This document shows positions 58,559-59,914 of a DNA stretch of 64,000 nucleotides, piece by piece. The DNA lies in the IMG/VR virus record IMGVR_UViG_3300048904_000202, positions 4,007-68,006 of that record. One strand, 5' to 3'. The position numbers and the translations under genes were made by a program. The notes below the pieces were generated by a model. That model was not told where the DNA came from and searched no databases. It was given only the letters and a program-made list of their open reading frames with translations. Numbering within the stretch: the first letter of the stretch is position 1; every line of letters begins with the position of its first letter. This DNA is from a virus. Lineage: Duplodnaviria; Heunggongvirae; Uroviricota; Caudoviricetes.

Positions 58559-58567
58559 TATTCTTAG

Positions 58568-58596
58568 TTGACAGTGATGCGAATCACGTCTAGTAA
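58568..58596 (+). promoter_or_regulatory. Promoter of the ncRNA/tmRNA operon
   Basis: TTGACA-N17-TAGTAA. Confidence 0.7.
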
Positions 58597-58705
58597 GACT
58601 CAACACCGAGGGCAATGCTTCCGCTGCGTTCTTGGTTAGCGCCGTTCAGGTGGGTCACTGGACCCTTAAAGGCATGACCATCCATCACATCTGTGATGGT
58701 CCGCC

Positions 58706-58860
58706 GCCTGAGTGGAGCGACAAGTGATTACCGATCACTGGCGATCGGGATAGATGGTAACGGGCGCCCGCTTTCTCCCCTTGGGCCGGCGCACGGTGTT
58801 TCTAGGGCTTCGAGCCGTCTATCTCGGTCGCCAGTGATGTTCACTTGCGATGCGGCAGGC
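58706..58860 (+). ncRNA. Unidentified rod-like RNA with a 24-bp G-U-containing stem
   Basis: ATCACTGGCGATCGGGATAGATGG pairs with CCGTCTATCTCGGTCGCCAGTGAT; outer stems CAAGTGA/TCACTTG and GCCTG/CAGGC. Confidence 0.6.
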
Positions 58861-58939
58861 CTTGCCGACCGTGGAGGTCGGTTGGTCAACACTAGGCCGG
58901 CGAGGCAGGGAGTAGTGTCCCGGCAACGAGCTTTGGTCT

Positions 58940-59336
58940 GCCCCATCGCCAGTGATGGCGAGATGATCGTAATTCGGACGATCGAAGTTTTGGCTCGGAC
59001 GCGGGGGCGGTTCCCGCCGGTTCCACCACGAGCCCCGATATTACTGCCACTAGGGGCGACCTACCGCTCCGAAGAGGCGCGGAGTTATCGGCCGCGCTCT
59101 GTGTTCGGGGTTGATGATGGGGCCGAAGTAGGATTCGACGGGCAAGGCGGAGGTTAGGACGCGATCTAGCATGACCGACTACGCTTCGGCGAGACAGGTC
59201 ACCGTTTGTAAATGCGAACGACAACACTCCGGTGGTTGTCGCCCGCGACGAGGTTCGCCTCGCCGCGTAAGCGATAACTCTCAGCCTCCGGACTGAGAAA
59301 AGGGGCTCGGGGCCAGCCTTGCAACAGAATGGCCCC
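58940..59336 (+). ncRNA. ssrA: Circularly permuted two-piece tmRNA (alphaproteobacterial type); 5' boundary approximate
   Basis: Acceptor piece ends GCGGG-GGCGGTT-CCCGC-CGGTTCC-ACCA at 59028; coding piece starts GGGGCCGAAGTAGGATTCGACGGG at 59119 (G3:U70); tag ANDNTPVVVARDEVRLAA* at 59214-59270; terminal GGGGCC..CAACAGAA..GGCCCC hairpin. Confidence 0.9.
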
Positions 59337-59345
59337 ACGAGATTT

Positions 59346-59494
59346 GAGGTAGCTGGAGGTCGCCGGTTCGAGTCCGGTCATCCCCTGATCCGGGATGTAG
59401 CTCAGATGGTAGAGCGCCAGCGTAGGGGAGACACCGGTTCGACTCCGGTCCGGCTGTTGATCAGCAGCCGTTAGCTTAGAGGTAAAGCGCCTCG
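59346..59494 (+). ncRNA. Two tandem circularly permuted tRNA-like modules (T arm, loop-closed acceptor stem, D arm)
   Basis: T loops TTCGAGT and TTCGACT, canonical D arms, acceptor-like stems closed by TGATC-containing loops. Confidence 0.75.
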
Positions 59495-59790
59495 ATTTTG
59501 GGACGTGGTGAAACGATACATCCACATCTCCTTGAGCCGGCGAAAGCCTGACTGCCGGGAAAGTACGGTGAAGAGCAGTGCGGATGGAGGGCACTTGATC
59601 TTCGGATCAAGTCCGGGCAACAGAAACCCTCCACTGGTTTCGGGCTTTCAGCCCAGACGAGATGGGGTGGCAAGACAGCGCCGGGTGCGTCCGGCGTGGC
59701 ACGCACGCTAAGGCTGATGCTGATGTGTCTTGGGACCATCCCACCTATTTGCCGGGAGCAGGTTTGTGTCTCCCAATACAAAGTGATCCC
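59495..59790 (+). ncRNA. Unidentified structured RNA, about 290 nt
   Basis: cUUCGg hairpin 59593-59612 inside TGGAGGG/CCCTCCA; GGGCT/AGCCC and CGCCGG/CCGGCG hairpins; T-loop-like GGTGAAA, GGTGAAG and GCAACAG motifs. Confidence 0.5.
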
Positions 59791-59798
59791 GGCGGGTT

Positions 59799-59838
59799 AG
59801 GCCCGGTCGTTTTTCGGAACGACCGGGCCTTTCCTTTT
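59799..59838 (+). terminator. Terminator of the ncRNA operon
   Basis: 14-bp stem with TTCG loop, then TTCCTTTT. Confidence 0.8.
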
Positions 59839-59844
59839 GCGAAA

Positions 59845-59885
59845 GTGTTACTTTCGCTTGACATCTGGTGTTAGTTTAGCTTAAC
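59845..59885 (+). promoter_or_regulatory. Promoter with tandem GTGTTA-N7-TTRAC motifs
   Basis: GTGTTACTTTCGCTTGAC (59845-59862) and GTGTTAGTTTAGCTTAAC (59868-59885), 23-bp period. Confidence 0.7.
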
Positions 59886-59914
59886 AGTCTGAGACAACAG
59901 ACACAGGGCCGTTC

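What the first reader, a model, noticed from the sequence alone, without database searches (positions are those of the whole stretch)
59346..59494. Two back-to-back circularly permuted tRNA-like modules with TGATC-closed acceptor stems
Seen: unit 1 = GCTGG(59352)-AGGTC-T arm (GCCGG TTCGAGT CCGGT)-CATCCC [CTGATCC] GGGATG-TA-D arm (GCTC AGATGGTA GAGC)-G-CCAGC(59421). Unit 2 = GGGG-AGAC-T arm (ACCGG TTCGACT CCGGT)-CGGCTG [TTGATCAG] CAGCCG-TA-D arm (GCTT AGAGGTA AAGC)-G-CCTC(59493). The 3' half precedes the 5' half, the acceptor end is sealed by a loop, there is no anticodon loop or CCA, and both sealing loops contain TGATC. Known: this topology resembles bacterial YrlA-type Y RNAs (tRNA mimics usually linked to Ro60/Rsr) and the permuted tRNA genes of Cyanidioschyzon; no Ro60 gene is in this window. 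Inference: non-chargeable tRNA-elbow mimics, possibly decoys for host tRNA-targeting defences or scaffolds for T-loop-binding partners.
Basis: partly seen in the sequence, partly recalled or inferred. Interest (0 to 1): 0.75.

Follow-up and report, generated by a model that had tools for sequence, protein, structure and literature searches.

The report
Tandem sealed tRNA mimics after phage tmRNA
A large sphingomonad phage carries, right behind its own tmRNA gene, two back-to-back RNA modules that copy the body of a tRNA but have a sealed acceptor end and no anticodon loop; they are handle-less, partner-less relatives of bacterial Y-RNA (YrlA) tRNA mimics whose job is still unknown.

Summary
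Window 59352-59421 (U1) and 59425-59493 (U2) are two complete, circularly permuted tRNA bodies. Each runs anticodon-stem 3' strand, V loop, T arm, loop-sealed acceptor stem, U8-A9, D arm, G26, anticodon-stem 5' strand. All canonical tertiary-core nucleotides are present. Neither unit has an anticodon loop or CCA.

Both units match only the tRNA-like core of Rfam YrlA (38.1 and 23.4 bits against a gathering score of 69). Ordinary tandem-tRNA junctions reach similar scores, but none of 38 such junctions checked has a sealed acceptor plus a closed anticodon stem. U1 looks derived from a tRNA-Ala gene.

The units sit 13 nt after a phage-encoded two-piece tmRNA. They lie in a slot that varies among relatives: empty, unrelated RNA, or a Y-like element with one sealed unit. 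The complete 164-kb phage has no TROVE/Ro60 or DUF2828 match, and no DUF7873 among the 96 ORFs scanned. It does encode RtcB about 4.5 kb downstream.

My best reading is accessory, Ro-independent tRNA-body mimics carried on the tmRNA transcript, probably nuclease-proof decoys or docking sites for tRNA-binding proteins. The function is inferred, and no RNA data exist. This scan has already noted many similar sealed mimics on other DNA, including a related phage's tmRNA trailer.

The parts
58946..59338 (+). Phage-encoded two-piece (permuted) alpha-type tmRNA. This is context: the mimics start 13 nt after its terminal hairpin, with no strong terminator between.
   Evidence: Rfam alpha_tmRNA 76.7 bits and tmRNA_permuted 82.1 bits. 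ARAGORN calls tmRNA* at 58936-59361.
59352..59421 (+). U1, a permuted tRNA-Ala-like body. Order: AC 3' strand GCTGG, V loop AGGTC, T arm 59362-59378, sealed acceptor CATCCC/CTGATCC/GGGATG 59379-59397, U8-A9, D arm 59400-59415, G26, AC 5' strand CCAGC.
   Evidence: YrlA model 38.1 bits, the best match in the whole phage. The 5' half matches the phage tRNA-Ala(UGC) at 27 of 29 aligned positions. Target fold -27.0 against MFE -27.5 kcal/mol.
59422..59424 (+). GTA linker joining the open anticodon-stem ends of U1 and U2. It is too short to form an anticodon loop.
59425..59493 (+). U2, a second permuted tRNA body. Order: AC 3' strand GGGG, V loop AGAC, T arm 59433-59449, C, sealed acceptor CGGCTG/TTGATCAG/CAGCCG 59451-59470, TTA, D arm 59474-59488, G26, AC 5' strand CCTC.
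   Evidence: YrlA model 23.4 bits. The U1-seeded model R1 aligns it full-length at 35.5 bits, E 1.5e-6. Sealed helix of 8 bp including G.U.
59494..59595 (+). Window-specific remainder of the variable insert. It contains GGCGAAAG (59539-59546), the only + strand copy of GNCGAAAG in the 64 kb.
   Evidence: This stretch does not align to the relatives.
59596..59838 (+). Conserved downstream small RNA with a TGTCTCC motif and a strong intrinsic terminator (59799-59830 plus a T-run). This is context: it is shared with relatives that lack the mimics.
   Evidence: Alignment A5. Terminator scan.

Best explanation
The stretch encodes two tandem RNA modules. Each folds into the L-shaped body of a tRNA, with an intact T-loop/D-loop elbow and core triples. 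In each, the acceptor end is closed by a 7-8-nt loop and the anticodon loop is deleted, so the module's 5' and 3' ends meet at the anticodon stem.

They are handle-less relatives of the tRNA-like head of YrlA Y RNAs. At least U1 arose by circular permutation of a tRNA-Ala-type gene.

They are most likely transcribed by read-through from the phage's two-piece tmRNA gene. They behave as accessory cargo of the phage's translation-maintenance island, which holds 26 tRNAs, the tmRNA and RtcB.

The mechanism I think most likely is this. The two sites where tRNA-targeting nucleases and toxins act, the anticodon loop and the 3' CCA end, are both missing. The modules could therefore offer uncleavable tRNA bodies that compete for, or dock, proteins that recognise the tRNA elbow and core. 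Candidates are host tRNA-directed defence nucleases and tRNA-processing or modifying enzymes.

Shown: the sequence anatomy, the likeness to YrlA's core, the absence of known partner genes, and the variable presence among relatives.
Inferred: transcription, folding in vivo, any binding partner, and the decoy role.
For: - Anatomy and canonical tertiary core in both units.
- Sealed acceptor plus anticodon-stem closure is unique among 40 T-to-D junctions examined.
- The proposed folds are near-MFE and far beyond any shuffle.
- The YrlA model matches the core only.
- U1 resembles the phage tRNA-Ala, but both of that tRNA's non-Watson-Crick acceptor pairs (G3.U70, U6.U67) are Watson-Crick in U1, and an anticodon-stem pair is flipped in a compensatory way (CCTGC/GCAGG to CCAGC/GCTGG). 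This points to selection for pairing and loss of the AlaRS identity pair.
- U1 and U2 share T and D loops, but their acceptor and anticodon stems differ almost completely while staying paired.
- Relatives carry a topologically equivalent sealed unit with different stem sequences and sealing hairpins from 6 bp to about 15 bp. So the elbow and core are what is conserved, not the acceptor tip.
- The slot after the tmRNA is variable: empty in Erythrobacter phage vB_EliS-L02 and filled with unrelated sequence in L025. That fits accessory cargo, not an obligatory tmRNA part.
- An unrelated phage contig (L041) also has a sealed mimic downstream of its tmRNA inside a tRNA island.
- RtcB lies about 4.5 kb downstream on the same strand.
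- Hughes et al. 2020 (PMC7790460) proposed that the YrlA tRNA-like domain may competitively inhibit an anticodon nuclease.
Against: - There is no expression, processing or binding evidence of any kind.
- Most characterised anticodon nucleases read the anticodon loop, which these modules lack, so decoy activity is not guaranteed.
- U2's model scores (23.4 and 35.5 bits) are no better than those of tandem-tRNA junctions.
- Only a handful of relatives are available, and none has the same two-unit form. Covariation therefore rests on comparing U1 with U2, with tRNA-Ala, and with divergent relatives.
- RtcB is equally present in relatives that lack mimics, so the linkage is to the island and not to the mimics.
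Confidence: 0.45

Rival explanations
1. The modules are processing or stability elements of the non-coding operon. As tRNA-shaped structures they recruit RNase P, which would cut in the sealing loops, and other tRNA 3'-end enzymes. That would define the 3' end of the tmRNA coding piece and the 5' end of the downstream small RNA. Alternatively, they cap the tmRNA 3' end against exonucleases.
For: - They begin 13 nt after the tmRNA's last hairpin, with only a weak U-run between.
- The same transcript already depends on RNase P for the tmRNA and tRNAs.
- M. smegmatis YrlA, with a 7-bp sealed acceptor, is cut by RNase P and gets CCA in vivo (PMC4201824).
- The promoter-like element that precedes the downstream sRNA in relatives aligns to a degenerate TTGATC-N17-CAACAG in the window. 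So the sRNA may need to be released from a long precursor.
Against: - Relatives mature the same type of tmRNA with no mimic (Erythrobacter phage) or with unrelated sequence (L025).
- Sealing-hairpin length varies from 6 to about 15 bp in relatives, which does not fit a measured RNase P site.
- A cut in a sealing loop leaves the two halves base-paired, so it would not release the flanking RNAs.
- S. Typhimurium YrlA, with a short sealed stem, is not cleaved. U1 has 6 bp plus a C.C mismatch.
Confidence: 0.2
2. The modules are the effector heads of a Y RNA that works with a protein partner encoded elsewhere. The partner could be a host Rsr/Ro60 or an unrecognised phage protein, giving an RNP as in Rsr-YrlA.
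For: - The core matches YrlA.
- Relatives' elements have a Y-RNA-like layout, with a terminal stem of about 17 bp formed by the 5' and 3' ends enclosing the tRNA-like core.
- GGCGAAAG, which fits YrlA's GNCGAAN0-1G, is invariant at the 3' end of that stem in four lineages. It also occurs 46 nt after U2, at the same offset from the tmRNA stop.
- In bacteria YrlA is operonic with RtcB, and an RtcB gene is nearby here.
Against: - No TROVE or DUF2828 in this phage or in five relatives' records.
- No DUF7873 among 96 ORFs of 185-330 aa.
- The window's version has no terminal stem.
- The motif is 3' of the units, not near a 5' end, and is not enriched window-wide (7 found against 12.8 expected).
- It also occurs in the Erythrobacter phage trailer, which has no tRNA-like unit.
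- Whether the host has Rsr could not be tested.
Confidence: 0.18
3. The modules are non-functional relics. Tandem duplicates of two tRNA genes lost their outer halves through deletions, which automatically leaves complementary 'acceptor' and 'anticodon' strands.
For: - Permutation by duplication and deletion is the expected origin.
- U1's 5' half is 93% identical to the phage tRNA-Ala.
- The slot is evolutionarily fluid.
Against: - This would need three deletions, each ending inside an anticodon loop.
- 25 of 26 tRNA genes encode CCA, and spacers are at least 3 nt, yet neither sealing loop keeps NCCA.
- Every tertiary-core nucleotide is intact in both units.
- The tRNA-Ala mismatches have been repaired to Watson-Crick pairs, and an anticodon-stem pair is flipped in a compensatory way.
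- Both loops share UGAUC although their stems differ (P about 0.012).
- The same topology recurs with different sequences in relatives and in unrelated phages.
Confidence: 0.07
4. The modules are true permuted tRNA genes. They would mature by end-joining, for example by the phage RtcB, into a circle and then be opened at the acceptor, as in Cyanidioschyzon merolae, to give linear tRNAs.
For: - The 3' half precedes the 5' half.
- The phage encodes RtcB.
- The host has RNase P and a CCA-adding enzyme (established knowledge).
Against: - The flanks cannot supply a plausible anticodon loop. Only GTA links U1 to U2, and any 7-nt loop built from the flanks (such as GUAGGUA) violates Y32 and R37.
- I saw no bulge-helix-bulge-like motif at the unit ends when reading the flanks; I ran no dedicated search.
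- U1 has lost G3:U70, and its 1:72 position is C.C.
- RtcB is also present in relatives without the units.
Confidence: 0.03

Closest known systems
YrlA (Y RNA-like A; Rfam RF02553), the Ro60/Rsr-bound tRNA mimic of bacteria and mycobacteriophages (Chen et al. 2014, PMC4201824)
   Same: - The same permuted order: V, T arm, loop-closed acceptor stem, D arm, on an anticodon-like stem.
- Canonical T and D loops.
- It occurs in phages that also carry tRNAs and a tmRNA.
- RtcB is in the neighbourhood.
   Different: - No Ro-binding stem and no 5' GNCGAA motif.
- No Ro60 gene in the phage.
- Scores of 38 and 23 bits against a gathering score of 69.
- Two heads in direct tandem, joined by 3 nt.
- Fused to the 3' side of a tmRNA gene.
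M. smegmatis YrlA, which is cleaved by RNase P in its sealed acceptor loop and receives CCA (PMC4201824)
   Same: A sealed acceptor stem of near-tRNA length, which could be an RNase P substrate.
   Different: Here the stems are 6 bp plus a mismatch (U1), or 6 bp with a 7:66 mismatch plus a 2-bp extension (U2). Cleavage is untested.
Sealed permuted tRNA mimics found repeatedly by this scan in other phages and bacteria. These are unpublished AI notes: 'two-headed' RNAs next to DUF7873 (e.g. e1-2703945), mimics next to DUF2828/Ro60-like proteins (e.g. e1-5399790), and a handle-less head between tRNA genes (e1-5361100).
   Same: - Tandem or single permuted tRNA bodies with loop-capped acceptor stems.
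- They often lie inside phage tRNA islands.
- They often lack Ro60.
   Different: This phage has none of the partner genes (TROVE, DUF2828, DUF7873). The units lie in a tmRNA trailer and do not follow a protein gene. RNA-level homology to those families could not be tested, because I had no reference sequence.
Circularly permuted tRNA genes of Cyanidioschyzon merolae (from my own knowledge; not re-read here)
   Same: In the gene, the 3' half precedes the 5' half, joined across the acceptor end.
   Different: Those genes encode a full tRNA, including an anticodon loop rebuilt by circularisation. Here the anticodon loop is absent and cannot be rebuilt.
Two-piece (permuted) alphaproteobacterial tmRNA (Rfam RF01849, RF04321)
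   Same: The same permutation logic (T arm, acceptor 3' strand, linker, acceptor 5' strand), in the adjacent gene on the same transcript.
   Different: The tmRNA linker is about 90 nt and is excised after an encoded CCA. The tmRNA has G3:U70 and no canonical D arm. The mimics have 7-8-nt loops, no CCA, no G3:U70 and full D arms.

Membership tests
YrlA (RF02553) | tRNA-like domain in the order V - T arm - closed acceptor stem - D arm | tested here: met
   cmscan aligns both units to model positions 23-85 and 24-84. My manual parse and the core nucleotides agree.
YrlA (RF02553) | Score at or above Rfam's gathering threshold (69 bits) | tested here: not met
   38.1 and 23.4 bits. Tandem-tRNA junctions in the same genome reach 25-28 bits.
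YrlA (RF02553) | Ro60-binding module: a basal stem formed by the 5' and 3' ends, with GNCGAAN0-1G near the 5' end (PMC4201824) | tested here: not met
   Model positions 1-22 and 86-114 are unmatched. I found no enclosing stem on reading the flanks of the fold; the 5' flank is only 13 nt. The only GNCGAAAG lies 46 nt 3' of U2 and is not enriched.
YrlA (RF02553) | Encoded within about 4 kb of a Ro60/TROVE gene on the same strand | tested here: not met
   No PF05731 match in the complete 164-kb phage, while the control genomes gave matches. No match in five relatives' records either. The flanking ORFs are a 3keto-disac_hyd domain protein, Gp77, an ORF with no Pfam match, and DUF5906.
YrlA (RF02553) | Bound by Rsr/Ro60 in vivo | not testable with these tools
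Both genome-contig scans returned nothing.
Phage Ro60-like (DUF2828) protein with handle-bearing tRNA-like RNAs (scan notes) | DUF2828/Ro60-like gene in the genome | tested here: not met
   No PF11443 match at E<=1 in the phage or at E<=0.1 in the relatives.
DUF7873-linked two-headed tRNA-mimic RNA (scan notes) | Two tandem permuted tRNA-like modules in one non-coding unit ending at a terminator | tested here: met
   U1 and U2 lie within an ORF-poor 58559-59914 region that ends at the terminator 59799-59838.
DUF7873-linked two-headed tRNA-mimic RNA (scan notes) | Adjacent DUF7873 protein gene (about 245 aa) | tested here: not met
   Pfam scan of 96 of the 100 ORFs of 190-320 aa across the whole genome found no DUF7873. 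The upstream genes are a tail-fibre-type protein and Gp77.
DUF7873-linked two-headed tRNA-mimic RNA (scan notes) | Sequence and structure homology of the whole ~370-400-nt RNA | not tested
Functional tRNA gene | Anticodon arm and a free acceptor end with (or able to receive) CCA | tested here: not met
   ARAGORN gives no call here. The Rfam tRNA hit at 59397-59450 (29.7 bits) merely bridges U1's D arm to U2's T arm, with non-complementary acceptor strands.
Tandem-tRNA junction (known YrlA false positive, PMC4201824) | T arm of one complete tRNA followed by the D arm of the next; acceptor strands unrelated | tested here: not met
   Neither unit has the missing halves. Sealing helices are 6 and 8 bp, against 0-5 bp in 38 junctions. 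Junction acceptor complementarity is 2-5 of 7.
Permuted tRNA gene (C. merolae type) | Termini that can be joined to rebuild a 7-nt anticodon loop | tested here: not met
   A 3-nt GTA linker, and flanks that are incompatible with Y32-U33-NNN-R37.

The most novel reading that the evidence does not exclude
Handle-less, protein-partner-less tandem tRNA-body mimics ride on a phage tmRNA transcript and act as uncleavable decoys. With both vulnerable sites of a tRNA removed (the anticodon loop and the CCA end), they would titrate host tRNA-targeting defence nucleases or tRNA-damage sensors. They would work together with the phage's tRNA set, tmRNA and RtcB as a four-part kit for keeping translation alive. 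The two UGAUC/GAUCA sealing loops may additionally kiss, locking the pair into a closed two-L frame.
Probability: 0.2. Interest if true: 0.75.

Novelty: new variant of a known kind. Interest (0 to 1): 0.45.

Why it matters
YrlA-type tRNA mimics are known only as partners of Ro60, and what their tRNA-like head does is still open. Here the head occurs alone and duplicated, without Ro60, DUF2828 or DUF7873. It is attached to a phage tmRNA inside an island devoted to tRNA supply and repair. That argues the head has a function of its own. It also offers a simple genetic system for finding that function: delete 142 nt of a phage, then test hosts with and without tRNA-directed defences. On the practical side, the locus is an annotation trap. 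Rfam's tRNA model passes its threshold on a chimera of U1's D arm and U2's T arm.

Tried and rejected
- **MFE folding.** Single-sequence MFE folding of each unit and of both together gave z-scores of only -0.9 to -2.2 and did not return the cloverleaf. This is uninformative, as is usual for tRNAs, so I replaced it with target-structure evaluation.
- **RNA evidence.** No RNA holder was listed for the stretch. All listed holders on record are root or rhizosphere DNA metagenomes, so expression could not be assessed.
- **Host or prophage copies.** The protein-anchored scan and the tmRNA-tag pattern scan of genome contigs both found nothing.
- **Literature.** A search for DUF7873 returned nothing, and the tmRNA/phage/tRNA-like/Y RNA search returned only Chen et al. 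2014. That paper's supplementary tables are not held.
- **Custom covariance model R1, seeded on U1.** It cannot separate mimics from tandem-tRNA junctions by score (37.0 bits for a Pro/Met junction against 35.5 for U2). It detects the relatives' units only weakly, at 15-16 bits.
- **U2 as a hidden promoter.** I considered whether U2's loop plus D arm (TTGATCA-N10-GCTTAGAG) is a promoter like the phage's TTGACA-N12/13-TAGCTTAAC. I rejected this because the spacing is 3-4 nt too short and the E. coli-type scan finds nothing.
- **attP.** Rejected.
- **A second permuted tmRNA.** The tmRNA_permuted model gives only 11.7 bits, E 8.
- **The Rctr197k BLAST hit.** This is generic likeness to a tRNA-Gly/tRNA-His junction.
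- **Phage-encoded SmpB or CCA-adding enzyme.** Neither is present.

Full report
**Context**

The window is part of a complete 164,476-bp IMG/VR phage record (G000:C1:4007-68006). Earlier notes call it a Lacusarx-like phage of sphingomonads. The window holds 26 tRNA genes and a two-piece, alpha-type tmRNA at 58946-59338, scoring 76.7 bits on Rfam alpha_tmRNA and 82.1 bits on tmRNA_permuted. The finding starts 13 nt after the tmRNA's terminal hairpin. It lies in an ORF-poor stretch (58559-59914) that ends at a strong intrinsic terminator at 59799-59838.

U1 (59352-59421) and U2 (59425-59493) each read in this order: anticodon-stem 3' strand, V loop, T arm, acceptor 3' strand, sealing loop, acceptor 5' strand, U8-A9, D arm, G26, anticodon-stem 5' strand. 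There are two small corrections in U2. One C lies between the T stem and the acceptor, and TTA, not TA, precedes the D stem.

Every nucleotide that builds the tRNA core is canonical in both units: U8, A14, G15:C48, G18G19, A21, G26, A44, G53:C61, T54-T55-C56 and A58.

As a control I examined 38 other T-arm-to-D-arm junctions, all ordinary tandem tRNAs in the window and its relatives. Their sealing helices were 0-5 bp with large loops, and none combined a sealing helix with anticodon-stem closure. U1 has 6 bp, a 7-nt loop and a 5-bp closure. U2 has 8 bp, a 4-nt loop and a 4-bp closure.

The permuted-cloverleaf folds cost -27.0 and -21.6 kcal/mol, within 0.5 and 2.5 kcal/mol of the MFE. None of 1000 shuffles comes close on the same structure. 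Twenty-five of the 26 real tRNA genes encode CCA, but neither sealing loop does. Both loops contain TGATC, with a chance expectation of about 1.2%. UGAUC in U1 is also complementary to GAUCA in U2, so a 5-bp loop-loop contact is possible.

**What it resembles**

Rfam's YrlA model aligns to both units, but only over its tRNA-like core (positions 23-85 of 114). The scores are 38.1 bits (E 1.5e-6) and 23.4 bits (E 0.028), against a gathering score of 69.

Across the whole phage, U1 is the best YrlA match. U2 is no better than tandem-tRNA junctions, which score 25-28 bits. A model seeded on U1 behaves the same way, giving U2 35.5 bits and a Pro/Met junction 37.0 bits. Chen et al. 2014 warned about exactly this false-positive class (PMC4201824). 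The argument therefore rests on the sealed stems, not on model scores.

The Rfam tRNA hit at 59397-59450 (29.7 bits) is a chimera of U1's D arm and U2's T arm, and ARAGORN calls nothing there.

**Origin**

U1's 5' half matches the phage's own tRNA-Ala(UGC) at 27 of 29 aligned positions, and its 3' half is also Ala-like. Three things differ from that tRNA:
- G3.U70, the AlaRS identity pair, has become G-C.
- The U6.U67 mismatch has become U-A.
- One anticodon-stem pair is flipped in a compensatory way.

This fits permutation of a tRNA-Ala-type gene followed by selection for a stable, non-chargeable body. U1 and U2 share their T and D loops, but their acceptor and anticodon stems differ almost completely while remaining paired.

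**Relatives**

I fetched eight related viral or metagenomic contigs through the neighbouring DUF5906 gene and the tmRNA tag sequence, plus Erythrobacter phage vB_EliS-L02. All share the same synteny: tRNA island, two-piece tmRNA, variable slot, conserved roughly 250-300-nt small RNA with terminator, proteasome-like gene, DUF5906 gene, RtcB.

The contents of the slot differ:
- **Erythrobacter phage:** nothing.
- **L025:** an unrelated insert of about 270 nt.
- **L001, L005, L008 and L011:** a 180-215-nt element with a terminal stem of about 17 bp. It encloses one sealed permuted unit plus a second T arm.
- **The window:** U1, U2 and about 100 further nt.

In the L001-type units the T, D and anticodon stems covary between lineages, for example GCCCG/CGGGC against CCGAA/TTTGG. 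The sealing hairpin ranges from 6 bp to about 15 bp. So the elbow and core are conserved, but the acceptor tip is not.

An unrelated 84-kb contig (L041) also has a sealed mimic (YrlA model 43.6 bits) downstream of its tmRNA within a tRNA island, and there it is followed by a GOLLD RNA. Other phage contigs show the 'sealed unit plus extra T arm' design as well.

**Partners**

The phage has no TROVE/Ro60 match, although the control genomes gave matches. It has no DUF2828. There is no DUF7873 among 96 of its 100 ORFs of 190-320 aa. Five relatives' records also lack TROVE and DUF2828.

The phage does encode a full-length RtcB (400 bits) at G000:68043-69224, on the same strand about 4.5 kb downstream. 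RtcB is equally present in relatives without mimics, so it marks the island and not the mimics. There is no phage SmpB or CCA-adding enzyme.

GGCGAAAG fits YrlA's proposed Rsr-contact motif. It lies 46 nt after U2 and is the only + strand copy in the window. The same octamer closes the terminal stem of every L001-type element at a similar offset from the tmRNA stop. But the motif is not enriched overall, and it also occurs in the mimic-less Erythrobacter phage trailer. I count it as a lead only.

**Interpretation**

With high confidence, these are real, selected tRNA-body mimics of the YrlA-head type. They are not tRNA genes, not tandem-tRNA junctions and not simple relics.

Their variable presence argues that they are accessory cargo and not a required part of tmRNA maturation. 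They lack both sites where tRNA-directed nucleases and toxins act, and they sit among tRNAs, a tmRNA and RtcB. Hughes et al. 2020 suggested that YrlA's tRNA-like domain may competitively inhibit an anticodon nuclease (PMC7790460). Taken together, this makes a nuclease-proof decoy or docking role the reading I favour. That role is inference only.

The rivals, in order of weight:
1. A processing or stability module, for example RNase P cutting in the loops as in M. smegmatis YrlA.
2. A Y RNA for a host Rsr or an unknown partner.
3. Decaying duplication relics.
4. Circularisation-matured permuted tRNAs.

No RNA-seq run holds this DNA, so transcription and processing remain untested.

**Novelty**

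This scan has already recorded many sealed permuted tRNA mimics in phages, usually next to Ro60-like, DUF2828 or DUF7873 genes. It has also recorded a related phage's 'tmRNA trailer' containing a closed mimic. This case is a new variant of that known kind. It is tandem and handle-less, it has no detectable partner gene, and it is fused to a two-piece tmRNA.

Noticed in passing
G000:C1:68043-69224 (+), starting 37 nt past the window's end; locus L032: A full-length RtcB RNA ligase (PF01139, 400 bits) lies about 4.5 kb downstream of the mimics on the same strand. The same synteny (tRNAs, tmRNA, sRNA, proteasome-like gene, DUF5906 gene, RtcB) holds in the relatives, including Erythrobacter phage vB_EliS-L02.
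   Followed up: partly
window 59339-59595 compared with L001:4986-5166, L025 trailer, L023:1713-1740: The gap between the phage tmRNA and the conserved downstream small RNA is a variable cargo slot. It is empty in one relative, holds an unrelated ~270-nt RNA in another, holds a Y-like element with one sealed tRNA mimic plus an extra T arm in others, and holds two sealed mimics here.
   Followed up: partly
L001:4986-5166 (also L005:3276-3475, L008:192-389, L011:4314-4528): The relatives' element has a terminal stem of about 17 bp formed by its ends (UUUCGCCAACGUCUCG / CGUCGGGGCGUUGGCGAAA), with one compensatory change. It encloses a permuted sealed tRNA-like unit and a second T arm, a layout more Y-RNA-like than the window's. 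Rfam YrlA does not detect it at E<=1.
   Followed up: partly
window 59539-59546; L001 trailer offsets 107 and 245; L023 offset 153: GGCGAAAG or GTCGAAAG octamers fit YrlA's GNCGAAN0-1G Rsr-contact motif and recur in the tmRNA trailers at similar offsets. The window's copy is the only + strand copy in 64 kb, but the motif is not enriched overall.
   Followed up: partly
L041:8816-10408 (IMGVR_UViG_2974521131_000001): An unrelated 84-kb viral contig has a one-piece tmRNA, a tRNA, a sealed permuted tRNA mimic (7-bp acceptor, YrlA model 43.6 bits) and then a GOLLD RNA (RF02032, 182.5 bits), all within a tRNA island.
   Followed up: partly
window 59397-59450: Rfam's tRNA model passes its gathering score (29.7 against 29) on a chimera of U1's D arm and U2's T arm. 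This could be mis-annotated as a tRNA or a pseudogene.
   Followed up: yes
window 59385-59391 and 59457-59464: The two sealing loops (CUGAUCC, UUGAUCAG) share UGAUC and are mutually complementary over 5 nt (UGAUC/GAUCA; duplex -6.8 kcal/mol). A kissing contact between the two acceptor ends is possible.
   Followed up: partly
L050:1583, L054:1235, L065:10933, L093, L100 and other loci: Many unrelated viral contigs carry tRNA-like genes in normal order that have an acceptor stem, D arm and T arm, but only 10-17 nt where the anticodon arm should be. These are anticodon-arm-less mini-tRNAs. L056 and L059 show the 'sealed unit plus extra T arm' design.
   Followed up: no
window 59596-59838: The downstream small RNA (TGTCTCC motif plus terminator) is conserved in all relatives. 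It gives a weak hit to Rfam Betaproteobacteria_toxic_sRNA (24.5 bits, below the gathering score of 50). The promoter-like TTGACR-N17-TATYWG that precedes it in relatives aligns to a degenerate TTGATC-N17-CAACAG hairpin in the window.
   Followed up: partly
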